From IMG/VR virus record IMGVR_UViG_640753025_000002: a stretch of DNA of 33,781 bases; one strand, written 5' to 3'. The notes beneath the pieces were generated by a model that was not told the DNA's origin, did not search any database, and was given only the letters and a program-made list of their open reading frames with translations. This DNA is from a virus. Lineage: Duplodnaviria > Heunggongvirae > Uroviricota > Caudoviricetes. The translations under genes were made by a program, and so were the position numbers. Numbering within the stretch: position 1 is the stretch's first letter; each line of letters begins with the position of its first letter. Below, in pieces: positions 2,377 through 31,161 of the stretch.

Positions 2377-2886
2377 ATGTTTGATTACCAAGTTTCCAAA
2401 CATCCACATTTTGATGAAGCCTGTCGTGCATTCGCATTGCGCCACAACCTGGTGCAACTGGCAGAACGTGCTGGCATGAATGTGCAGATTCTGCGGAACA
2501 AGCTGAACCCAGCTCAACCTCATTTATTAACCGCACCAGAAATCTGGCTGCTTACCGATCTGACTGAAGATTCAACGCTGGTAGATGGTTTTCTGGCACA
2601 GATTCATTGTCTGCCATGTGTACCGATTAATGAGGTGGCAAAAGAGAAACTGCCACATTACGTCATGAGTGCAACCGCAGAGATCGGGCGTGTTGCTGCA
2701 GGTGCGGTATCTGGCGATGTAAAAACCTGTGCCGGTCGTCGTGATGCTATCAGCAGCATTAACTCTGTAACACGACTGATGGCGCTGGCGGCTGTTTCAT
2801 TGCAGGCCCGTTTACAGGCTAATCCTGCGATGGCGAGTGCAGTTGATACCGTGACTGGCCTCGGTGCTTCATTCGGTTTGCTGTGA
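2377..2886 (+). CDS. cII: CII-like lysogeny-establishment regulator
   Basis: 169 aa from the ATG at 2377 (RBS AGAGG 8 nt upstream), the same length as 186 CII; second gene of the early operon. Confidence 0.6.
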
Positions 2887-2893
2887 GGTGCTT

Positions 2894-3094
2894 ATGCTGA
2901 CGAAAGAACCATCATTTGCATCGCTGCTGGTAAAACAAAGCCCGGCAATGCACTACGGTCACGGCTGGATCATGGGTGAGGATGGTAAACGCTGGCATCC
3001 GTGCCGTTCACAAGATGAATTGCTGGCAGAACTATCTACGAAAAAACGGGGGAACAAATGGCTATTGAAGGCACTGCGGCGACTGTTCCATTAA
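2894..3094 (+). CDS. Hypothetical early protein (66 aa)
   Basis: ATG at 2894 with GAGGTG RBS just after the cII stop; occupies the position of 186 fil. No motif recognised. Confidence 0.4.
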   Translation: MLTKEPSFASLLVKQSPAMHYGHGWIMGEDGKRWHPCRSQDELLAELSTKKRGNKWLLKALRRLFH

Positions 3095-3399
3095 GCCCCG
3101 GTGAACGCCTGAATGGACTTAATCACATTGCGGAATTAAGGGCGAAAGTTTTTGGCCTGAATATTGAGTCAGAGCTTGAGCGGTTTATTAAAGATATGCG
3201 TGATCCATGGGATATCAATAATGAACAAAATAAAAGGGCACTGGCTGCCATATTCTTTATGGCAAAAATTCCAGCTGAACGTCATAGCACCAGCATTAAT
3301 GAGCTGACCACTGACGAAAAGCGGGAGTTGATTAAAGCAATGAATCATTTTCGTGCAGTGGTGAGCTTATTTCCCAGACGGCTAACCATGCCGAATTAA
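3058..3399 (+). CDS. Hypothetical early protein (113 aa)
   Basis: ORF in the early operon, overlapping the upstream gene by 37 nt; no motif recognised. Confidence 0.4.
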   Translation: MAIEGTAATVPLSPGERLNGLNHIAELRAKVFGLNIESELERFIKDMRDPWDINNEQNKRALAAIFFMAKIPAERHSTSINELTTDEKRELIKAMNHFRAVVSLFPRRLTMPN

Positions 3400-3466
3400 C
3401 CAACTAATGAAATTAATGGCGTAAACCCGCCGGGCATCCCTTTATCTAAATTCAGGAGAATTGATT

Positions 3467-3700
3467 ATGCGTAATATTGAAATCCTCACGACTAAAACCG
3501 GACCGGATGACGCAGGGCTTAATATTTTACTGACAGAGGCTCGTCTGGAAGAACGCCGGGCAAGGGCTGAAGCAATGGCAGCTCGCCTTGATAGCCTGGC
3601 GTGTCATATCACATCCCGCCAGCTAAACCACGTCGAAGCAGCAGAACTGCTGCGTGTGACTGCTGAAGCAATCCAGAGCGAAGCGCAGGAGATCCACTAA
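3467..3700 (+). CDS. Hypothetical early protein (77 aa)
   Basis: ATG at 3467 with AGGAG RBS 8 nt upstream; stop overlaps the next start (TAATG). Confidence 0.45.
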   Translation: MRNIEILTTKTGPDDAGLNILLTEARLEERRARAEAMAARLDSLACHITSRQLNHVEAAELLRVTAEAIQSEAQEIH

Positions 3701-3927
3701 TGGCTGATGCAATGGATCTCGTACAGCAGCGCGTTGAAGAAGAACGCCAGCGCCATATCCGTGCTGCCCGTGCCAAAACACCGGGCGTGTCTCGCGTGCT
3801 TTGTATTGAATGTGAAGCGCCAATTCCGCCAGCACGCCGCCGCGCCATTCCGGGTGTGCAGCTTTGCATTACCTGTCAGGAAATCGCAGAGCTGAAAGGC
3901 AAACATTACAACGGAGGTGTTGTATGA
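3700..3927 (+). CDS. TraR/DksA-family C4 zinc-finger protein
   Basis: 75 aa with CxxC-x17-CxxC (CIECEAP...CITCQ), typical of phage TraR-like zinc fingers; AGGAG RBS. Confidence 0.65.
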   Translation: MADAMDLVQQRVEEERQRHIRAARAKTPGVSRVLCIECEAPIPPARRRAIPGVQLCITCQEIAELKGKHYNGGVV

Positions 3928-4781
3928 GCACCATCCTGAAATGGGCGGGAAATAAAACCGCCATTATGTCCGAACTGAAAAAACATCTTCCTGCTGGCCC
4001 GCGACTGGTTGAACCTTTCGCGGGGTCCTGTGCTGTGATGATGGAGACGGATTATCCCAGCTATCTGGTTGCGGATATTAATCCTGATTTAATCAACCTC
4101 TATAAAAAGGTTGCCGCTGATTGTGAATCGTTTATATCTCGCGCCAGAGTTTTATTTGAGATCGCAAACAGGGAGGTGGCTTATTACAACATAAGGCAGG
4201 AGTTTAATTACTCAACTGAAATTACTGATTTCATGAAAGCGGTATATTTCCTGTATCTCAATCGTCACGGTTACCGTGGTTTATGTCGCTATAACAAGAG
4301 CGGGCATTTCAACATTCCCTACGGTAATTATAAAAATCCGTATTTCCCTGAAAAAGAAATTCGCGCATTTGCAGAAAAGGCCCAGCGAGCAACGTTTATC
4401 TGCGCCAGCTTTGATGAAACGCTGGCGATGTTGAAGGCGGGAGATGTGGTGTATTGCGATCCGCCGTATGACGGTACGTTTTCCGGCTATCACACTGATG
4501 GTTTCACTGAAGATGACCAGTATCACCTGGCATCCGTTCTTGAACATCGGTCATCAGAAGGACATCCGGTCATTGTTTCTAACAGTGACACATCCCTGAT
4601 CCGTTCGCTGTATCGCAATTTTACTCACCACTATATCAAGGTAAAACGCAGCATCGGTGTGGCAGCTGGCGAGGGTAAATCAGCAACAGAAATCATTGCT
4701 GTTTCCGGGCCGCGCTGCTGGATGGGATTTGATTATTCGCGTGGCGTGGATAGTTCTGCCGTGTACGGAGTACGTGCATGA
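3924..4781 (+). CDS. dam: DNA adenine methyltransferase (Dam, N6-adenine GATC MTase family)
   Basis: Begins [11 protein letters not shown]; AdoMet motif FAGSCAV and catalytic DPPY motif (gatccgccgtat near 4447); GGAGG RBS before the ATG at 3924; the upstream extension to 3864 is rejected. Confidence 0.85.
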
Positions 4782-7192
4782 GTCATGCCGATATGAACAA
4801 CTGCTGCGGCTTTAACGAGGCTGCCGCAGCGTTCTCATGGAACAGCCCGAAAAAGGCCATTAACCCTTATCTGGACCCGGCGGAAGTTGCGCCGGTTTCT
4901 ACGCTTTCAAACCTGATCACTCTGTACGCTGCCGATAACGAGCAGGAACAGTTGCGCCGCGAGGCACTGAGTGATCAGGTCTGGGAGCGTTATTTCTTTA
5001 ATGAATCACGTGATCCTGTCCAGCGCGAAATGGAGCAGGATAAGCTCATTAGCCGGGCAAAGCTGGCGCATGAGCAGCAGCGTTTTAATTCAGACATGGT
5101 CATTCTGGCGGACGTCAACGCCCAGCCTTCCCATATCAGCAAGCCGCTGATGCAACGTATTGAATACTTCAGCAGCCTGGGCAGGCCAAAGGCTTATTCC
5201 CGCTATTTACGTGAGACGATTAAGCCATGTCTGGAACGACTGGAGCATGTACGCGACAGTCAGCTATCTGCATCTTTTCGCTTTATGGCAAGCCATGAAG
5301 GGCTGGACGGCCTGCTGATCCTGCCTGAAATGAGTCAGGATCAGGTGAAACGCCTGTCCACCTTGGTAGCTGCGCATATGAGTATGTGCCTTGATGCAGC
5401 TTGTGGTGATTTGTATGCCACCGATGACGTTAAGCCAGAAGAAATCCGCAAGACATGGGAAAAGGTGGCAGCGGAAACCCTGCGTCTGGATGTCATCCCG
5501 CCTGCGTTTGAGCAACTCCGTCGGAAAAGAAACCGCCGTAAACCCGTGCCCTATGAACTCATTCCGGGTTCGCTGGCGCGTATGCTGTGCGCCGACTGGT
5601 GGTATCGGAAATTGTGGAAGATGCGTTGCGAATGGCGGGAAGAGCAGTTGCGTGCTGTCTGCCTGGTCAGCAAAAAAGCATCTCCCTATGTCAGCTATGA
5701 AGCCGTGATGCATAAACGTGAGCAGCGCCGTAAGTCACTGGAGTTTTTCCGTTCTCATGAACTGGTGAACGAAGACGGAGACGCGCTGGATATGGAAGAT
5801 GTGGTAAACGCCAGCAGCAGCAACCCGGCGCATCGTCGCAATGAGATGATGGCCTGTGTTAAAGGTCTGGAGCTTATCGCGGAAATGCGCGGTGACTGCG
5901 CCGTTTTCTACACCATTACCTGTCCGTCACGTTTCCATTCCACGCTCAATAACGGCAGACCCAACCCGACATGGACAAATGCGACGGTAAGACAAAGCAG
6001 CGATTATCTGGTCGGTACGTTTGCTGCATTTCGTAAGGCGATGCACAAAGCCGGGTTGCGCTGGTATGGCGTGCGGGTGGCTGAGCCGCATCATGACGGC
6101 ACAGTTCACTGGCACCTGTTGTGTTTCATGCGCAAAAAAGACCGCCGCGCCATTACTGCATTGTTGCGTAAGTTTGCTATCCGTGAAGACCGTGAGGAGC
6201 TGGGCAATAACACGGGGCCGCGCTTTAAGTCTGAGCTGATTAACCCGCGAAAAGGAACGCCGACAAGCTACATCGCGAAATACATCAGTAAGAACATTGA
6301 TGGGCGTGGTCTGGCTGGCGAAATCAGCAAGGAAACGGGTAAATCCCTGCGTGATAACGCTGAATACGTTAATGCCTGGGCGTCTCTGCATCGTGTTCAG
6401 CAATTTCGCTTCTTTGGTATTCCGGGGCGTCAGGCGTACCGTGAATTGCGATTGCTGGCTGGTCAGGCGGCAAGGCAACAGGGTGACAAAAAAGCAGGTG
6501 CGCCGGTACTGGATAACCCGCGCCTTGATGCCATTCTGGCTGCTGCTGATGCTGGTTGTTTTGCCACCTACATTATGAAGCAGGGCGGCGTACTGGTTCC
6601 CCGCAAATATCACCTTATCAGAACAGCTTATGAAATTAACGAAGAGCCGACCGCCTATGGCGATCACGGTATTCGTATTTATGGCATCTGGTCACCCATT
6701 GCAGAGGGCAAGATTTGTACTCATGCAGTGAAGTGGAAAATGGTTCGTAAGGCCGTTGACGTTCAGGAGGCGGCAGCCGACCAGGGCGCTTGCGCCCCTT
6801 GGACTCGTGGCAATAACTGTCCCCTTGCTGAAAATTTGAACCAACAGGAGAAAGATAAATCAGCTGATGGGGACCCCAGAACGGACTTTACCCGCATGGA
6901 TGACAAGGAGTTGCACGATTACCTGCACAGTATGAACAAAAAGGAGCGCCGGGAACTGGCTGCAAGGTTACGTCTGGTGAAACCGAAACGGCGTAGAGAC
7001 TACAAACAGCGAATTACAGACCATCAACGACAGCAGCTCGTCTATGAACTGAAATCCAGAGGATTTGATGGCAGCGAGAAAGAGGTCGATTTACTCCTTC
7101 GCGGCGGCAGTATTCCGTCAGGAGCAGGCCTGCGTATCTTCTATCGGAACCAGCGTTTGCAGGAAGATGATAAGTGGCGGAACCTGTATTAA
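4778..7192 (+). CDS. A: Rolling-circle replication initiator/endonuclease (P2 gpA family)
   Basis: 804 aa; HUH-type motif [13 protein letters not shown] and the tyrosine pair [12 protein letters not shown] seen at the P2 A active site; start overlaps the dam stop (ATGA). Confidence 0.9.
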
Positions 7193-7346: not shown

Positions 7347-7535
7347 ATGCAGGACTATTTTTTGGAGTCTTTGAAGCTCCAGCGCATTGATTTTTTTCTT
7401 AAGCTTGTAGCGGCTAGTGAGTGTAGTGATGAAGAGAAGGGGCTGGCTCTGCAGTGGGTTTCTGAATTGACTGATGAACTCATGGCAAAAATCAGAAGCC
7501 ACGAATACAACCGCTCAATGGATGTCATCAGCTGA
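7347..7535 (+). CDS. Hypothetical protein (62 aa), first gene of the SOS-controlled module; possible antirepressor component
   Basis: AGGAGG RBS 4 nt upstream of the ATG; immediately downstream of the LexA box; acidic small protein. Confidence 0.45.
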   Translation: MQDYFLESLKLQRIDFFLKLVAASECSDEEKGLALQWVSELTDELMAKIRSHEYNRSMDVIS

Positions 7536-7545
7536 GGTGACTTTT

Positions 7546-7779
7546 ATGCGCATTGAAATAATGATCGATAAAGAGCAGAAGATTAGCCAGTCTACCCTGG
7601 ACGCCCTTGAATCCGAGCTTTACCGCAATCTGCGCCCCCTGTATCCCAAAACGGTAATCCGTATCCGTAAAGGTAGCTCTAACGGTGTGGAACTGACCGG
7701 ACTGCAACTGGACGAAGAAAGAAAACAAGTGATGAAAATTATGCAGAAGGTGTGGGAAGACGACAGCTGGCTGCATTGA
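7546..7779 (+). CDS. DinI-family protein (DNA-damage-inducible protein I homolog)
   Basis: 77 aa; begins MRIEI... and ends ...KIMQKVWEDDSWL, alignable by eye to E. coli DinI (MRIEV...ILQETWESADDWF); GAGGTGA RBS. Confidence 0.75.
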   Translation: MRIEIMIDKEQKISQSTLDALESELYRNLRPLYPKTVIRIRKGSSNGVELTGLQLDEERKQVMKIMQKVWEDDSWLH

Positions 7780-7834: not shown

Positions 7835-7867
7835 GGCGATGTCAATCGGATATCGCCTTGTTTTTTG
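7835..7867 (+). terminator. Putative rho-independent terminator after the SOS module
   Basis: Stem GGCGAT / ATCGCC with an 11-nt loop, followed by TTGTTTTTTG. Confidence 0.5.
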
Positions 7868-7892
7868 TCAAGAAAAGAATAATAGGCTAAAA

Positions 7893-8570
7893 ATGAAAAT
7901 TAATAATGTAGCGTTACCAATATCTCTTGCTGTAATCCTAACTGGTTGCGTGCCACATGCTTCTAACCGAAATATCACTGCTATTGAAGTGGTGAAGCCT
8001 GCTATTGGGCAAAGTGCTACCGCCTACATGGGCGATCCCATTATCACATCTGCTACTGGATTTAAAACGGACGTACTAGAACTTGGTGCGGCTAATGGTG
8101 CATTGTCTTCTATCGCTGCTGGTACATATTGCAGTGAGGGGAATGGAATTTACCGCAATTATCATAACCCTCAAGCTGTTGCGTTAAAAAATCTCTATGG
8201 GCAAATCGGTAACTATGTTGATTATGTTAGTTACGATGCTGCAAAAAATGAGATATCACCGCCAAATGGTACTTCTTATACTGCATCAGAAATTTCTATC
8301 AAACGTGTTCCTGATGGGCTGTGTCGAGTTAGTAACTCATTGGTTAAGACTATCGAATACAATGGAAATGCAGGCGGTGTAATGAAGTTCACCTATCGTG
8401 AATTTGCAAACGATATGGCTCGTGCAGCATTTACAACAGATTTTTCTGTAGATTCTAAGGGAAGTGACGTTATCGCTTACAAAGGTGCCAAGTTCAAAGT
8501 GAACAAGGCTGATAACTCGTCTATTTCTTATACAATTATTTCTGGCTTTGACAAGGCTGTCACGTTCTAG
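7893..8570 (+). CDS. Lipoprotein of unknown function (226 aa)
   Basis: Signal peptide with lipobox LTGC (MKINNVALPISLAVILTGC); AT-rich relative to phage core genes; lies in the variable region between A and cos. The ORF-track start at 7839 runs through the upstream terminator and is rejected. Confidence 0.6.
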   Translation: MKINNVALPISLAVILTGCVPHASNRNITAIEVVKPAIGQSATAYMGDPIITSATGFKTDVLELGAANGALSSIAAGTYCSEGNGIYRNYHNPQAVALKNLYGQIGNYVDYVSYDAAKNEISPPNGTSYTASEISIKRVPDGLCRVSNSLVKTIEYNGNAGGVMKFTYREFANDMARAAFTTDFSVDSKGSDVIAYKGAKFKVNKADNSSISYTIISGFDKAVTF

Positions 8571-8674
8571 TTTTCACGCTTACTGAGTATGTTACGATTT
8601 TGCACATTCTGCATAAGCGCGCATGTCTATGCTGCATGAGATCGCATGATCGTTTGAGGATCTTTTGTGTTAAG

Positions 8675-8699
8675 GCCCGCCAGTTCTGGCGGGCTTTTG
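8675..8699 (+). terminator. Rho-independent terminator downstream of the lipoprotein gene
   Basis: GCCCGCC-(AGTTCT)-GGCGGGC hairpin followed by TTTTG. Confidence 0.6.
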
Positions 8700-8743
8700 C
8701 GTAGATCATGCAGGTGCATGAAAACCACTACATAAAGCGGGCA

Positions 8744-8762
8744 GGCGTGGCGGGGATACGAG
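8744..8762. other. Probable cos cohesive-end site (GGCGTGGCGGGGATACGAG)
   Basis: Strong resemblance, from memory, to the 19-nt cohesive end of P2/186 (GGCGAGGCGGGGAAAGCAC-like); located in an intergenic region on the Q-proximal side of the genome as in P2. Confidence 0.45.
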
Positions 8763-8855
8763 CGCGCGCAATAAGTGTTTATACCAAAATATTGTCTTAT
8801 GATATCTTTATCGGATTACTCTGGAAGTTCTATAGCGTCATAAAGGATTTTTTTA

Positions 8856-10247
8856 ATGAACGAAAAACTAACTGAATTAAAAGAGAAACTAGATAATTTA
8901 CATACAACACTTAATGGTCTTGTATTCCCTGTGGAAGATTTTATAAACCTTGGGCCGTACACATTTCCTTTTTTACATAAAGATGATCTGATAGAACTAC
9001 CAAAAATGTTATCTGATAGAATTAATCAGATGCAGGAATTTGTACCATCTTCAGATGACATTGCAGTAATTGATGCGCTCATTTACACTCTGGATCATGC
9101 TCAGCAAAATATTAATCATATAAACAATGGTAACGCATCAGTTCAACAGACCGCTATACCATCTTATGTTATTTCAATGTTATATATCTCTCATAGGATT
9201 AATGACCTTTTTTCATTTGAGAGGCTGAAAGATAGAAATTTATTACCAAAGCAAATTTTACGCAGATTAGAATTATATAATTCAGGTATATCTGCAATTG
9301 CAGCTGAAACTGGTAATATAGAAGAGAAAATTAAAACTATAAATGAAGCATATGATGCAGCCGAGAATCTACCGACAACAGTAAAAATGCTTCGTGAAAC
9401 AAATGATGAAGTTAAAAATGTTTACAATAGCGCAGTTGAGCATTGCAGAAATATTAATGGCATGCTTAAAGAGACTGAAGAGAACTCCAAAATCGTAGAT
9501 GAGGCCAGACAAGAAATTTTGGCGCTGAAACAGAATGCAAGCAAGGATGCAAAAGATTATTTACAATCTCTCCGTGAAGAAGCTCAGGGTTATATTAATA
9601 AATGTGAAGAGGCATTTAGAACTACTACTTCAAAAGGTTTGGCTGGGGCATTTCAAGATAAAGCAGAAAAATTAAACCGGAGCATACGTTGGTGGGTATG
9701 TGGACTAATAGGTGCTTTGGTTGCAGGTGCTGCTGTTGGTTATACGCGTTTACATGCTCTCGAAGCATATCTGTCAAACCCTGACGCATCAGGTATAAAG
9801 TTAGCTATTCAACTTTTACTCTCCATTTTAAGTGTTGGAGCACCATTATGGTTTGCTTGGTTAGCAACGAAACAAATTGGTCAGCGATTCAGATTGGCAG
9901 AGGATTATGAATTCAAGGCCTCAGTATCCAAAGCTTATGAGGGATATAGAAGAGAAGCTGTCCAACTTGATAGCGACTTTACCCAAAGGTTATTTGGTAA
10001 TGCACTTACTCGACTGGAGGAGCCGCCATTAAGATTTGTTGAAGAAGCTACCCATTCATCGCCTATAATGGAAATGTTATCATCGGAAAATTTTAAGCAT
10101 TTCTTAGCTAATGGTGGCGATAAAATCGATTCAATTTTAGAAGGTGCAGGCCTTTCTAGAAAAGGTAAAGTCGAACAAACGCGCCATTTTAATAAGGATG
10201 TGATCCAGCCTGTAAATGAAACTTCAAACAAACCAGAAAATGATTAA
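8856..10247 (+). CDS. Membrane-associated protein of unknown function (463 aa): N-terminal coiled-coil-rich domain plus a two-helix transmembrane hairpin; candidate defence/abortive-infection effector
   Basis: Very AT-rich ORF with an AAGGA RBS; two hydrophobic helices (WWVCGLIGALVAGAAVGY and IKLAIQLLLSILSVGAPLWFAWLA) after about 265 aa of K/E/N-rich helical sequence; no NTPase or nuclease motif recognisable by eye; sits between cos and Q. Confidence 0.7.
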   Translation: MNEKLTELKEKLDNLHTTLNGLVFPVEDFINLGPYTFPFLHKDDLIELPKMLSDRINQMQEFVPSSDDIAVIDALIYTLDHAQQNINHINNGNASVQQTAIPSYVISMLYISHRINDLFSFERLKDRNLLPKQILRRLELYNSGISAIAAETGNIEEKIKTINEAYDAAENLPTTVKMLRETNDEVKNVYNSAVEHCRNINGMLKETEENSKIVDEARQEILALKQNASKDAKDYLQSLREEAQGYINKCEEAFRTTTSKGLAGAFQDKAEKLNRSIRWWVCGLIGALVAGAAVGYTRLHALEAYLSNPDASGIKLAIQLLLSILSVGAPLWFAWLATKQIGQRFRLAEDYEFKASVSKAYEGYRREAVQLDSDFTQRLFGNALTRLEEPPLRFVEEATHSSPIMEMLSSENFKHFLANGGDKIDSILEGAGLSRKGKVEQTRHFNKDVIQPVNETSNKPEND

Positions 10248-10272
10248 AAATAGGGGCGTTAGCCCCCTATTT
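10248..10272. terminator. Bidirectional rho-independent terminator between convergent genes
   Basis: AAAAATAGGGGC-(GTTA)-GCCCCCTATTT hairpin flanked by an A-run and a T-run, between the 463-aa gene (+) and Q (-). Confidence 0.5.
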
Positions 10273-10274
10273 CA

Positions 10275-11303
10275 TCAAAGCATATACTCATTAAAATTAA
10301 TTACATCATCATCTAACCAAGTGTTCAGTTCCAGTATTTTTTTTTGTAATACTGTTAACTCATTTCTAACAAATACTTTGCAGGCTTTCTCCACATCCCC
10401 AAATCCCCCAACATTATTAGGCATTATCCCCATCATTTGTGGCGGTACACGGTGCGCAGCCATCATGTCGTCGCGGCTGACATTTTTGATATTCAGAAAT
10501 TCATCCTTCGCCGCGACTTCTGACAACGGGATAATCTGAAGACCATCCTTTTTGCCGTTAGGTGAGTACATAAACAGGTTGCGGAAGTTGCCTGGACCTT
10601 TGGCGCTTTTCATTGCGTTGCGGAGGTTGTTCACATCCTCCTGGTTCTGCGCAGCATCGGTCATGTACATGATGAAGCCAGCATGACTGCCGTTAATGTA
10701 ATACTTTCGGCGGAACAGCGTGGCGGACTCGTTGAGCAGGGCTGACGGAATGGCAGAAAGATAACCGGGCAGGCCGTAGATCTCCTGGTTGATGTCCGGT
10801 TCCATCAGATGAAAGATGCTGCCTTTCGTGAACTGATATGGCTGCGTGGTCATACCGTATTGCACAAACCAGTAGGTATCCAGGTCTAACCCGCGTCGGG
10901 TATATTTTGCCAGGGCAGGTTCAAGGGCGATAACTTCACCGAAGCGGTTCGTGCGTTTCTCCAGGTAGGCGTTACCAAATACCAGATAGTCCTGCACAAA
11001 ACGCGAAAAAGCCTGCTGGCTGAGCAGCGGGTGAGGGATGTAGGTGCTGGTCAGAATGTTGCACTTTACTGCAATCGGGGAACTATGATGCACGGCAGCG
11101 CGGAAGGTGCGCGCCAGTCCGTCAAAGCTGACGGGCGGCTCATACCAGCGGTCCATCTGTACGCATTCCACATAATCCAGCAGTTCTCGGCGGTCCAGAA
11201 CAGGAACGGGATCGCCGAAGCTGAATGCTTCGGCTGTAGTTTGACTTTTAAGCTGGATCTGTTTCGTCGCCGCAGCGCGGTTCTTCTTACTCTTTCCCAT
11301 CAA
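10275..11303 (-). CDS. Q: Portal protein (P2 gpQ family)
   Basis: 342 aa (P2 Q is about 344 aa); position and orientation match P2 Q, with its start overlapping the end of P. Confidence 0.9.
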   Translation of the reverse strand: MMGKSKKNRAAATKQIQLKSQTTAEAFSFGDPVPVLDRRELLDYVECVQMDRWYEPPVSFDGLARTFRAAVHHSSPIAVKCNILTSTYIPHPLLSQQAFSRFVQDYLVFGNAYLEKRTNRFGEVIALEPALAKYTRRGLDLDTYWFVQYGMTTQPYQFTKGSIFHLMEPDINQEIYGLPGYLSAIPSALLNESATLFRRKYYINGSHAGFIMYMTDAAQNQEDVNNLRNAMKSAKGPGNFRNLFMYSPNGKKDGLQIIPLSEVAAKDEFLNIKNVSRDDMMAAHRVPPQMMGIMPNNVGGFGDVEKACKVFVRNELTVLQKKILELNTWLDDDVINFNEYML

Positions 11304-30926: not shown

Positions 30927-31012
30927 CGCTGCCGCCATTTTGTCGCCATCGTTAAAAAATAGTGTTTCTAACATCATGATTTTAAACAGCTTAAATTTCA
31001 GGCAACAAAAAA

Positions 31013-31049
31013 CCCATCAACCTTGAACCGAAATGGCGGGGTTGATGGG
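31013..31049 (-). terminator. Hairpin with T-run on the minus strand; putative terminator for ybjL, or part of the prophage/host junction
   Basis: CCCATCAACC / GGTTGATGGG inverted repeat, preceded on the plus strand by AAAAAA (a T-run on the minus strand); about 110 bp beyond the ybjL stop. Confidence 0.4.
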
Positions 31050-31161
31050 CTCCACAAAATGGGGACATCAAAGAAAAGCAGTGGCACTAATTAAGACTGA
31101 TGCCCTGCGGAAAAGTTCTGCGGTTGTGCAAAAAAATTTCATTTTCAGGGCAACTTCAGTT

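What the first reader, a model, noticed from the sequence alone, without database searches (positions are those of the whole stretch)
8856..10247. Orphan 463-aa coiled-coil plus two-TM-hairpin protein between cos and portal gene Q: candidate undescribed defence or abortive-infection effector
This is the most AT-rich gene in the window and sits in the variable slot of P2-like phages where P2 itself carries old and tin. It has its own RBS and is bracketed by an upstream terminator and a downstream bidirectional terminator, so it is an independent transcription unit. The protein has about 265 aa of K/E/N-rich predicted helical or coiled-coil sequence, then two closely spaced hydrophobic helices (WWVCGLIGALVAGAAVGY and IKLAIQLLLSILSVGAPLWFAWLA), then about 130 aa of soluble C-terminus. 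I see no Walker A, HEPN, PD-(D/E)xK, HNH or other catalytic signature. A long sensor-like helical domain feeding a membrane hairpin is the pattern of membrane-disrupting abortive-infection effectors, but I do not recognise this sequence as any named family.
Basis: partly seen in the sequence, partly recalled or inferred. Interest (0 to 1): 0.85.

Follow-up and report, generated by a model that had tools for sequence, protein, structure and literature searches.

The report
Membrane-hairpin cargo gene in prophage hotspot
A real 463-residue inner-membrane protein gene sits alone in the swap-prone "defence slot" next to the packaging site of a P2/186-like prophage of E. coli HS; it is not an orphan but a member of a large, never-studied protein family spread across many bacterial phyla, and it is a reasonable but unproven candidate for a new single-gene anti-phage protein that acts at the membrane.

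Summary
The ORF (8856-10247, +) is real. It has the lowest GC of any ORF in the window (36.1% against 51.9%), its own RBS, and hairpin terminators on both sides. It lies between cos (8746-8764) and portal gene Q.

"Orphan" is wrong. A profile search finds 1,728 protein clusters, in Pseudomonadota, Bacteroidota, Leptospira and other phyla. All are unannotated, and none reaches a Pfam, NCBIfam, PADLOC or PDB match. The family does match PHROG 34659 (function unknown).

The family's constant part is residues 243-410: a pre-membrane helix, a two-helix membrane hairpin with a glycine-zipper face and a polar stripe, and a nearly invariant EDYxFK...YEG...PLR segment. The N-terminal helical half varies much more.

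No partner gene is conserved across 79 loci. On near-identical prophage backbones the same slot holds bSEFIR, AbiU or other cassettes. Relatives sit on P2-like and other phages, plasmids and integrase islands, sometimes beside known defence genes.

Best reading (about 0.4): a self-contained membrane-acting anti-phage protein, with a variable sensor and a conserved oligomerising hairpin effector. Function is untested, and structural matches are generic helical bundles. Interest is moderate.

The parts
8675..8697 (+). GC-rich hairpin (GCCCGCCAG-TTCT-CTGGCGGGC) followed by TTTTG. It is the likely terminator of the upstream early/accessory operon and belongs to the conserved prophage backbone, not to the cassette.
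   Evidence: Folds at -21.8 kcal/mol, z -4.8. Identical in related prophages. Not listed by the consensus scan because it has only 4 T.
8746..8764 (.). The 19-nt cohesive-end (cos) sequence GGCGTGGCGGGGATACGAG.
   Evidence: Aligns with P2 cosL/cosR GGCGAGGCGGGGAAAGCAC at 14 of 19 positions, with the same upstream 'AAGCGGGC' context. Invariant in five related prophages.
8771..8855 (+). Cassette-specific 5' region with the RBS AAGGA at 8843-8847. Backbone homology with sister prophages stops here, 6-7 nt after cos.
   Evidence: Alignment of five prophages with different cargo: identical up to GCGCGCGC, unrelated afterwards. No strong sigma-70 match.
8856..10247 (+). The 463-aa ORF (WP_001003256.1 / ABV05276.1). 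It is a member of PHROG 34659 and of a large unnamed family.
8856..9224 (+). aa 1-123: a compact, fast-evolving four-helix N-terminal domain.
9369..9689 (+). aa 172-278: the cytoplasmic part of one continuous predicted helix (172-306) that runs into TM1. Its last 36 residues (aa 243-278, nt 9582-9689; CEEAFRTTTSKGLAGAF..KA.KLN.S) are strongly conserved.
   Evidence: Invariant or near-invariant residues: C250, A253, T258, G261, L262, F266, L273, S276.
9690..9746 (+). TM1, aa 279-297. It carries a conserved small-residue ladder G283/A287/G291/G295 flanked by invariant W280, L284 and L288 (glycine-zipper-like).
   Evidence: Hydropathy. Column counts in 146 sequences.
9792..9866 (+). TM2, aa 313-337. 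It carries a conserved polar/small stripe (Q/N/H319, S323, S326, G328, A329, P330) and invariant W332 and W335.
9867..10085 (+). aa 338-410: the post-membrane cytoplasmic module TKQIGQRFRLAEDYEFKASVSKAYEGYRREA...RLFGNALTRLEEPPLRF...SSP.ME. This is the most conserved part of the family.
   Evidence: Mean pairwise identity 0.66 over 146 distant relatives, against 0.16-0.25 for the N-terminal half and the tail. Invariant D350, Y351, K354, G363, L379, P391, R393, P403.
10247..10273 (.). Bidirectional intrinsic terminator shared by the ORF and the convergent portal gene Q (10275-11303, -). It is positionally equivalent to P2's tQ.

Best explanation
ORF463 is accessory cargo of the prophage. It is most likely a self-contained, single-protein anti-phage (phage-exclusion) factor anchored in the inner membrane.

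Proposed working:
- The protein inserts as an N-in/C-in helical hairpin.
- The rapidly diverging N-terminal helical region (a four-helix domain plus a roughly 100-residue stalk helix that is continuous with TM1) acts as the specificity or sensor part.
- The conserved block is the effector: pre-TM helix, glycine-zipper TM1, polar-striped TM2, and the invariant EDYxFK...YEG...PLR juxtamembrane segment.
- On an infection cue the effector oligomerises or rearranges to open a leak or channel in the inner membrane. This collapses the membrane potential and aborts the infection.

What is shown: the gene, its cassette boundaries, its membership of a large family, the conservation pattern, the lack of any partner gene, and the defence-type slot.

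What is inferred: the topology, oligomerisation, pore formation, the trigger, and the anti-phage role itself.
For: Location:
- The gene lies in the gpA-gpQ cos-proximal hotspot of a P2/186-like prophage. This hotspot has been experimentally shown to hold many defence systems (PMC9122126).
- Six of eight randomly chosen unknown hotspot loci in the sister P4 elements protected against phages (PMC13586616).

Slot swapping:
- On backbones identical up to 6-7 nt past cos, the same slot holds bSEFIR, AbiU, a pAgo-associated-like protein, or unknown cassettes.
- The cargo is rare: 13 of 1,277 E. coli genomes with this backbone, plus one genome with a 64%-identical allele.
- Divergent alleles (41-53% identity) recur in the same slot on near-identical backbones.

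Stand-alone mobile gene:
- No conserved neighbour in 79 loci.
- It is found in very divergent P2-like phages, in non-P2 phages, at the end of an inovirus-like module, on plasmids, and next to integrases, an OLD nuclease, ParDE and DarT.
- Among neighbours within two genes are type I R-M, AbiU, Old, capP, NsnA, PD-T4-2, mad2 and Mrr-type enzymes, together with integrases and resolvases.

Architecture:
- The N-terminal half is variable and the hairpin module is strongly conserved.
- Some relatives have non-alignable, shorter N-termini on the same module.
- TM1 carries a small-xxx-small ladder and TM2 a polar stripe. From general knowledge, these features are typical of oligomeric channel-forming helices such as pinholins and glycine-zipper channels.

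Composition:
- GC of 36% against 52% marks a horizontally acquired moron.
Against: - There is no experimental or homology evidence of any function. PADLOC v2, Pfam, NCBIfam and PDB sequence searches are all negative.
- Structure searches return only generic helical-bundle or coiled-coil matches. A designed protein scores as high as any natural hit.
- Defence-gene enrichment among immediate neighbours is only about twofold over ORFs at least 6 kb away in the same loci, and per-protein counts could not be obtained.
- Some relatives sit among ordinary housekeeping genes.
- The invariant charged juxtamembrane residues (E349, D350, K354, E362, R386, E389, R393) suggest a specific binding or catalytic site rather than a simple pore.
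- No promoter was identified.
- P2 hotspots also carry non-defence cargo, such as partition systems and cdt toxin.
Confidence: 0.4

Rival explanations
1. Non-abortive exclusion at the envelope. The membrane-anchored protein sits at or near the phage DNA entry site and blocks or disturbs genome injection, for example by engaging tape-measure or ejection proteins or host entry factors, without killing the cell. In this reading the variable N-terminal domain is the phage-binding part.
For: - It shares the contextual evidence of the best explanation.
- The architecture predicts constitutive membrane anchoring.
- A membrane-bound defence protein acting at injection and contacting tape-measure proteins has a precedent in SNIPE (bioRxiv 10.1101/2025.11.03.685801).
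- From general knowledge, prophage-encoded inner-membrane exclusion proteins such as P22 SieA, T4 Imm and HK97 gp15 are classical.
Against: - Both large soluble parts are predicted to be cytoplasmic, and the periplasmic loop is only about 15 residues.
- There is no nuclease or other enzymatic domain.
- The most conserved part is the hairpin plus juxtamembrane block, across phyla with very different phages and envelopes. This fits a generic effector better than a phage-specific blocker.
Confidence: 0.2
2. Cargo with a role other than phage defence. Possibilities are a membrane-remodelling or stress protein, a factor for maintenance or competition of the mobile element (addiction toxin, contact or colonisation factor), or a lysogenic-conversion function that benefits the host.
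For: - P2 hotspots also contain partition systems and cdt toxin.
- Machine-learning scores flagged only 15-32% of unknown P2 hotspot proteins as antiviral (PMC13586616).
- Some family members lie among housekeeping genes with no mobile-element hallmark within 8 kb.
- The enrichment of defence neighbours is weak.
Against: - The same slot on isogenic backbones holds bona fide defence genes.
- The family is sporadic (252 of about 185,000 species genomes by pattern scan), lies on many kinds of mobile element, and has a fast-evolving N-terminal half. This is the pattern of conflict genes.
- One copy is split by IS1, so the gene is dispensable.
Confidence: 0.3
3. A phage life-cycle protein of the P2-like virus itself: a structural, packaging, ejection (tape-measure-like) or lysis-related component.
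For: Weak PHROG similarities of the coiled-coil region to tail and tape-measure families (E 4e-4 to 0.2), and BFVD tape-measure hits at E above 0.07. The gene is adjacent to cos, the portal gene and the terminase gene.
Against: - It is absent from P2 itself, where nothing lies between cosL and Q.
- It is present in about 1% of E. coli prophages with this backbone and is replaced there by unrelated genes.
- 76 of 80 species-level loci are not P2-like at all.
- Its GC is atypical, and an IS1-disrupted copy exists.
- The tail-family matches cover only low-complexity coiled coil.
Confidence: 0.03

Closest known systems
PHROG phrog_34659 (and the more distant phrog_30912), function unknown
   Same: Full-length HMM match (aa 36-438, E 2.3e-87; second family E 2.4e-16). 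This is the only library family the protein belongs to.
   Different: The PHROG carries no annotation, so membership gives no functional information.
Pfam DUF6161 (PF19658), an uncharacterised 2TM family
   Same: It is the only Pfam family that is not coiled-coil noise and that recurs. Five of 146 distant relatives give weak matches (best E 1.2e-6, 4.1e-5, 0.066). The one match whose coordinates were seen (P0263, aa 250-351) covers TM1 through the post-TM helix. A DUF6161 family was flagged as a possible defence protein by a language model (bioRxiv 10.1101/2025.01.08.631966). A 'DUF6161 (2TM)' protein appears in a hotspot locus of Aliivibrio wodanis in Rousset's supplementary tables.
   Different: ORF463 itself gives no DUF6161 hit at E up to 1. 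Profile-profile comparison with the Vibrio DUF6161-like family found nothing (probability 12%, on an unrelated segment). The conserved motifs differ: EDYxFKA..KAYEGY here, against KENLYRQRGTQ there.
AbiU and bSEFIR single-gene defence proteins
   Same: They occupy exactly the same cos-Q slot on near-identical Fels-2/186-like backbones. They are single genes of similar size (565 and 479 aa) with their own 5' regions and terminators.
   Different: No sequence similarity to ORF463. They are soluble proteins with different domains.
P2 Old and Tin
   Same: Accessory exclusion genes of the same A-Q cos-proximal hotspot.
   Different: They lie on the A side of cos and are transcribed leftward. Old is an ATPase-TOPRIM nuclease. 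There is no homology.
SLATT-type 2TM effectors of conflict systems (Burroughs et al. 2015; recalled from knowledge)
   Same: A predicted N-in/C-in two-helix hairpin with conserved flanking cytoplasmic helices, proposed to permeabilise the membrane; mobile and patchy distribution.
   Different: No SLATT Pfam model matched at E up to 1 for the query, and none appeared in the families listed for 146 relatives (only the 25 top families are shown per scan). BFVD SLATT proteins match only at E 0.4-0.6. There is no associated nucleotide synthase or any partner gene.
Four-helix-bundle cell-death domains (plant NLR CC domain Rx; MLKL N-terminal bundle)
Coiled-coil plus hydrophobic-hairpin pore formers (T3SS translocator IpaB; alpha-pore-forming toxins such as AhlC; colicin-type channels)
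   Different: Those are secreted proteins acting on foreign membranes. Only the coiled coil is matched, and there is no sequence similarity.

Membership tests
PHROG phrog_34659 | Significant full-length match to the family HMM | tested here: met
   E 2.3e-87, aa 36-438 against profile positions 36-413 of 433.
Pfam DUF6161 (PF19658) | Score at or above the Pfam gathering threshold (27 bits) | tested here: not met
   No hit for ORF463 at E up to 1. Five of 146 relatives give weak hits, the best at E 1.2e-6. hhalign against a DUF6161-like Vibrio family was negative. A distant relationship is possible but not shown.
SLATT 2TM effector domains | Match to a SLATT/DUF4231 model | tested here: not met
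   No SLATT family at E up to 1 for the query, and none among the families listed for 146 relatives (only the top 25 families are shown per scan). BFVD SLATT proteins match only at E 0.4-0.6, TM-score about 0.16.
SLATT 2TM effector domains | Genomic or physical linkage to SMODS/SLOG or another signal-generating partner | tested here: not met
   No neighbour family is shared by more than 6 of 79 loci. The gene is a single-gene cassette in the prophage.
Known anti-phage defence families (PADLOC-DB v2.0.0) | Significant match to a defence-protein HMM | tested here: not met
   Only coiled-coil noise: JetC at E 6e-4 and 16 bits; DruC at E 0.09.
Cargo of the P2-like gpA-gpQ cos-proximal diversity hotspot (Rousset et al. 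2022) | Located between the replication gene A and the portal gene Q, next to cos, in a P2-like prophage | tested here: met
   A at 4778-7192, cos at 8746-8764, ORF at 8856-10247, Q at 10275-11303. Hotspot definition.
Cargo of the P2-like gpA-gpQ cos-proximal diversity hotspot (Rousset et al. 2022) | Replaced by unrelated genes in otherwise homologous elements | tested here: met
   Seven different slot contents on matching backbones. The junction lies 6-7 nt after cos. Thirteen of 1,277 backbone-positive E. coli genomes carry the gene.
Anti-phage defence system (functional definition) | Expression reduces phage plating or protects cultures | not testable with these tools
The gene's accessions and locus tags were not found in the text library. 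WP_001003256 is absent from the supplementary tables of Rousset 2022, and the accession and family motifs are absent from those of DefensePredictor.
Abortive-infection membrane effector | Infection-triggered membrane depolarisation or cell death; toxicity on overexpression | not testable with these tools
   Only indirect evidence: a conserved glycine-zipper TM1 and a polar-striped TM2.
Abortive-infection membrane effector | Integral membrane hairpin | tested here: met
   Two hydrophobic segments, aa 279-297 and 313-337 (Kyte-Doolittle above 1.5), both helical in a pLDDT 85.6 model. K/R residues flank both cytoplasmic ends (sequence). This is prediction only.
P2-type core virion, packaging or lysis genes | Conserved at the position in P2-like phages | tested here: not met
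   Absent from P2. About 1% of matching E. coli prophages carry it. 76 of 80 species-level loci are not P2-like.
MLKL / CC-NLR / HeLo-type four-helix-bundle executioner domains | Specific structural or sequence similarity beyond that of generic helical bundles | tested here: inconclusive

The most novel reading that the evidence does not exclude
ORF463 represents a phylum-spanning, so far unrecognised class of one-protein immune sensors with a built-in pore. A constitutively membrane-anchored glycine-zipper hairpin is held closed by its invariant juxtamembrane EDYxFK...YEG...PLR latch. It is opened through a roughly 160 A stalk helix by an N-terminal four-helix bundle that is a true bacterial relative of the MLKL / plant CC-NLR death-executing bundles. 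If so, it would be a prokaryotic counterpart of eukaryotic helical-bundle cell-death executioners, carried as a swappable cassette by phages, plasmids and islands.
Probability: 0.08. Interest if true: 0.8.

Novelty: new member of a known kind. Interest (0 to 1): 0.5.

Why it matters
If the gene protects against phages, it would add a new, very widespread single-gene defence family: 1,728 clusters at 50% identity across many phyla, present on phages, plasmids and islands. Its effector module is absent from Pfam, PADLOC and the PDB.

The family could be annotated at once in thousands of genomes, and it would help explain the 19% of P2-like prophages reported to lack any identifiable defence gene. 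The conserved hairpin with its invariant charged juxtamembrane motif offers a compact system for studying how a membrane effector is kept silent and then triggered.

If it does not protect, it is a useful counter-example. It would show that residence in the cos-Q slot, low GC and a membrane hairpin are not sufficient to call a gene defensive.

Tried and rejected
- Sequence libraries: Pfam, NCBIfam and PADLOC gave only coiled-coil noise for the query. PDB sequence searches with the single protein and with a 36-sequence profile hit only designed or natural coiled coils in the N-terminal half.
- DUF6161 lead: I retrieved the 'DUF6161 (2TM)' protein of Aliivibrio wodanis from Rousset's supplementary tables and built its family. 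hhalign against the ORF463 family was negative. I did not find which member of alignment A2 gave the E 1.2e-6 hit.
- SLATT idea: a weak TIGR04402 hit (E 0.27) prompted it, but there is no supporting match.
- Conserved partner, antitoxin or small RNA: none found. This rests on neighbour clustering, an Rfam scan (only RybB, far away) and a repeat search (nothing meaningful).
- Promoter: no convincing sigma-70 site between cos and the ATG.
- Literature: the gene's accessions and locus tags were not found in the text library. WP_001003256 is absent from Rousset's supplements, and the accession and family motifs are absent from the DefensePredictor supplements. The new P4 systems of PMC13586616 do not resemble it. 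Brenes & Laub 2025 could not be read.
- Neighbour enrichment: the control set of ORFs at least 6 kb away also contained defence genes, so I rejected a strong 'defence island' claim.
- dN/dS on the N-terminal domain was not attempted. The available DNA homologues are too diverged (64% protein identity or less).
Full report
**What the window is.**
The stretch 8600-10300 is 100% identical to the E. coli HS chromosome (NC_009800.1). There it lies in a P2/186/Fels-2-like prophage and is annotated as the hypothetical protein WP_001003256.1. The gene order is:
- replication endonuclease A (4778-7192);
- a 62-aa ORF;
- a DinI-like gene (7474-7779; Pfam DinI, E 1.2e-22);
- a 243-aa lipoprotein-like ORF (7839-8570; phrog_1353);
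- the 19-nt cos sequence (8746-8764);
- the ORF in question (8856-10247);
- the convergent portal gene Q (10275-11303) and terminase gene P.

The cos assignment follows from alignment with P2 cosL/cosR, which matches at 14 of 19 positions in the same flanking context.

**Checking the observation.**
The following points are confirmed:
- The ORF exists as described. It has an AAGGA RBS 8 nt upstream, and its N-terminus is conserved in homologues.
- Its GC content is 36.1%, the lowest of any ORF of at least 100 aa in a 51.9% GC window.
- A bidirectional terminator lies at 10247-10273.
- A strong hairpin followed by UUUUG lies at 8675-8697, upstream of cos.
- There are two hydrophobic helices, aa 279-297 and 313-337.
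- No catalytic domain is detected.

Three points need correction:
- The protein is not an orphan (see below).
- P2's old and tin lie on the A side of cos, and in P2 nothing separates cosL from Q. This is the same hotspot but another sub-slot.
- The N-terminal 123 residues are predicted as a compact four-helix domain rather than coiled coil. Only aa 172-278 form a single long helix.

In addition, no promoter could be recognised in the 85 nt between cos and the ATG.

**A large, unnamed family.**
- A word-indexed search found at least 1,600 homologues. They occur in Citrobacter, Klebsiella, Enterobacter, Cronobacter, Pantoea, Erwinia, Serratia, Pectobacterium and Yersinia. All are 'hypothetical' and none has a Pfam domain.
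- An exhaustive profile search of 1.84 billion representatives found 1,728 clusters with E at or below 1e-3, and 481 with E at or below 1e-30.
- A pattern scan of one genome per species found 252 species. These include alpha-, beta- and gamma-proteobacteria, Bacteroidota, Leptospira, Verrucomicrobiota, Acidobacteriota, Nitrospinota and a Bacillota MAG.
- The only library family it belongs to is PHROG 34659, of unknown function (E 2.3e-87), with phrog_30912 more distant.
- Sequenced phages hold one relative, in Providencia phage PSTCR8lys (45% identity). Plasmids hold 17. IMG/VR holds 70 viral contigs.

**Anatomy of the protein.**
With 146 diverse sequences, AlphaFold2 gives a confident model (pLDDT 85.6, pTM 0.53). 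Its elements, in order, are:
- a four-helix domain (aa 1-123);
- two short helices;
- one continuous helix from aa 172 to 306 that runs straight into TM1;
- a turn at aa 307-312;
- a helix from aa 313 to 368, comprising TM2 and a post-membrane helix;
- shorter helices and a disordered tail.

Conservation is strongly polarised. Mean pairwise identity over the 146 relatives is:

| Region | Mean pairwise identity |
|---|---|
| N-terminal domain | 0.22 |
| Middle helices | 0.25 |
| Pre-TM helix | 0.47 |
| TM hairpin | 0.38 |
| Post-TM module | 0.66 |
| C-terminal tail | 0.16 |

Invariant or near-invariant residues are as follows:
- Pre-TM helix: C250, A253, T258, G261, L262, F266, L273 and S276.
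- TM1: W280, L284, L288 and G295.
- TM2: P330, W332 and W335.
- Post-TM module: T338-K-Q-I341, F345, L347, E349-D-Y351, K354-A, Y361-E-G363, L379, R386, E389, P391-L-R393 and P403.

TM1 carries a small-residue ladder at positions 283/287/291/295, where G, A or S make up 73-100% of residues. TM2 carries a polar/small stripe: Q, N or H at position 319 in 113 of 146 sequences, then S323, S326, G328-A-P330. From general knowledge of glycine zippers and pinholins, such faces are typical of tightly packed oligomeric, often channel-forming, helices. That link is an inference.

Some viral relatives of 360-431 aa share only residues 244-408 and have non-alignable N-termini. The hairpin module is therefore the defining unit of the family.

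**Context in the prophage.**
Five prophages were aligned across cos. They are identical up to GCGCGCGC, 6-7 nt after the cohesive end, and unrelated from about window position 8771 onward. Similarity resumes only within the 3' end of Q. The cassette therefore brings its own 5' region and terminator.

On backbones with the same A, DinI-like and lipoprotein genes, the slot holds:

| Host or phage | Slot content | Evidence |
|---|---|---|
| E. coli H7 | bSEFIR protein (PADLOC E 1.9e-104) | |
| Fels-2 | AbiU (STM2723.1, E 2.7e-112) | |
| E. coli KH_005 | 463-aa protein with pAgo-associated-like similarity (E 1e-19) | |
| E. coli GPEC60-12-649 | two small ORFs (63 aa, and 77 aa annotated DUF6953), no PADLOC hit | |
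| E. coli ESDR8 | ORF463 split by IS1 | |

Further points on distribution in this slot:
- Only 13 of 1,277 E. coli complete genomes that carry this cos backbone have ORF463. One more genome has a 64%-identical allele.
- That allele sits in the same slot while the gene on the other side of cos varies.
- Alleles of only 41-53% identity occur on backbones whose terminase is 100% identical to that of HS.
- P2-like phages with portals only about 34% identical also carry family members at this position.

Rousset et al. showed that this A-Q region is a hotspot with 1,650 gene arrangements and several validated defence systems (PMC9122126). A 2026 study found that 6 of 8 randomly chosen unknown loci of the sister P4 hotspot protect against phages. 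It also found that 15-32% of unknown P2 hotspot proteins score as antiviral (PMC13586616).

**Context elsewhere.**
Of the 80 best species-level loci, only 4 are P2-like. Clustering of the four ORFs on either side in 79 loci found no family shared by more than 6 loci, so there is no conserved partner.

Individual contexts include:
- an integrase plus an OLD-family nuclease;
- a ParDE pair;
- a UvrD_C_2 helicase operon;
- plain housekeeping genes;
- the region between the early genes and the region upstream of the terminase gene in a Providencia phage;
- IS elements on a Xanthomonas plasmid;
- the end of an inovirus-like (Zot) module near DarT on a Vibrio plasmid;
- positions between a YqaJ-like exonuclease and RecT, or just after a terminase gene, in other viral contigs.

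I then scanned 119 neighbours (within two genes, at least 200 aa, from 62 loci).
- Pfam found integrases (6), resolvases (4), ResIII (3) and Mrr (2).
- PADLOC found strong matches to type I R-M, AbiU (7e-163), Old (8e-87), capP, NsnA, PD-T4-2_A, mad2, type IV restriction enzymes and PbeA.
- A control set of 119 ORFs lying at least 6 kb away in the same loci also contained defence genes (Septu PtuAB, a type II methylase, a PD-T4-6-like kinase, and a Gabija/Old-like ATPase), though about half as many strong hits.

The association with defence and mobile-element genes is real but modest. It could not be quantified per protein.

**Comparison with known things.**
- No PADLOC family matches.
- The only recurrent Pfam signal outside coiled-coil noise is DUF6161. 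Five of 146 relatives match, with the best E-values 1.2e-6, 4.1e-5 and 0.066. The one match with known coordinates covers TM1 to the post-TM helix.
- ORF463 itself does not match DUF6161. A profile-profile comparison with the Vibrio 'DUF6161 (2TM)' family taken from Rousset's supplementary tables is negative.
- DUF6161 is itself uncharacterised, although a language model flagged a DUF6161 family as possibly defensive.
- SLATT models do not match.
- BFVD gives nothing with a TM-score above 0.3.
- The gene's accessions and locus tags are not found in the text library. WP_001003256 is absent from Rousset's supplements, and the accession and family motifs are absent from the DefensePredictor supplements.

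**Interpretation.**
The evidence establishes a mobile, single-gene, horizontally acquired cargo. It encodes an integral inner-membrane protein of a large uncharacterised family, and it sits in a slot that otherwise holds single-gene defence proteins.

The polarised conservation fits a sensor-plus-effector protein: a fast-evolving N-terminal half and a near-invariant hairpin with juxtamembrane block, the latter sometimes paired with unrelated N-termini. The helix faces fit an oligomeric membrane assembly.

I therefore favour a self-contained membrane-acting anti-phage protein, probably abortive (confidence about 0.4). The alternatives are:
- Non-abortive interference at the DNA entry site (about 0.2). 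SNIPE is a recent precedent for a membrane-anchored defence acting during injection, although ORF463 lacks any nuclease.
- A non-defence membrane or mobile-element function (about 0.3).
- A virion, packaging or lysis role, which the distribution effectively excludes (about 0.03).

The invariant charged residues next to the membrane hint at a specific ligand or partner site that a simple pore model does not explain.

**Verdict.**
The 'orphan' label is wrong, and the defence interpretation is plausible but unproven.

The gene is best filed as a new, uncharacterised family within a known kind: swappable single-gene cargo of the P2 cos-proximal hotspot, with a predicted membrane effector. Interest is moderate (0.5). 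The candidate is well defined, widespread and cheap to test. However, unknown hotspot genes are numerous and already expected to be defensive, and nothing here demonstrates a new mechanism.

Noticed in passing
window 7839-8570 (+): A 243-aa ORF (RefSeq start gives 225 aa, WP_000700647.1) with a lipobox (LTGC) near its N-terminus. GC is 40%. It matches phrog_1353 (unknown function) and has no Pfam or PADLOC match. It sits on the A side of cos, is conserved in many Fels-2/186-like prophages, and is replaced by DUF8087 or other small ORFs in others. It is a second accessory (lysogenic-conversion or exclusion?) candidate, independent of ORF463.
   Followed up: partly
L101 (E. coli ESDR8, NZ_CM169472.1) 2757-4924: The same ORF463 (99.9% DNA identity) is split by an IS1 insertion. 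The gene is therefore dispensable for the lysogen, and possibly counter-selected.
   Followed up: no
IMG/VR loci L121 and L141: These prophage backbones are nearly identical to HS (terminase 100%, portal 93% identity). Yet they carry family members only 41-53% identical to ORF463 in the same slot. Divergent alleles of one family recur at one site.
   Followed up: partly
IMG/VR loci L158-L173 (e.g. L161 5482-6564, L171 5656-6798, L158 5335-6630): Relatives of 360-431 aa share only the aa 244-408 hairpin module. Their coiled-coil N-termini are different and often shorter. They sit in non-P2 phages, between a YqaJ-like exonuclease and RecT or just after a terminase large subunit.
   Followed up: partly
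L096 4375-5811; L097 4239-5933; L098 3751-5139: The cos-Q slot of sister prophages holds bSEFIR (E. coli H7), AbiU (Fels-2 STM2723.1, annotated only as hypothetical) and a 463-aa protein with similarity to pAgo-associated domains (E. coli KH_005).
   Followed up: yes
window 7474-7779 (+): A DinI-like gene (Pfam DinI, E 1.2e-22). The Fels-2 record likens its counterpart to TumB of phage PsP3, so it is possibly a Tum-type antirepressor. It is preceded by a conserved 62-aa ORF (7347-7535).
   Followed up: no
window 31004-31082 (-): A RybB sRNA gene (Rfam RF00110, 105 bits). It marks host chromosome flanking the right end of the prophage.
   Followed up: no
window 10201-10800 (3' end of Q): The 3' end of the portal gene is unusually AT-rich (GC about 45%) and diverges between sister prophages at the DNA level. 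This suggests that cassette exchange crosses over inside Q rather than at a fixed right-hand junction.
   Followed up: partly
L095 (Vibrio plasmid NZ_CP046164.1) 1-7389: A family member lies at the end of an inovirus-like module (replication initiator, Zot) on a 396-kb plasmid, with a DarT-family gene 3 kb downstream.
   Followed up: no
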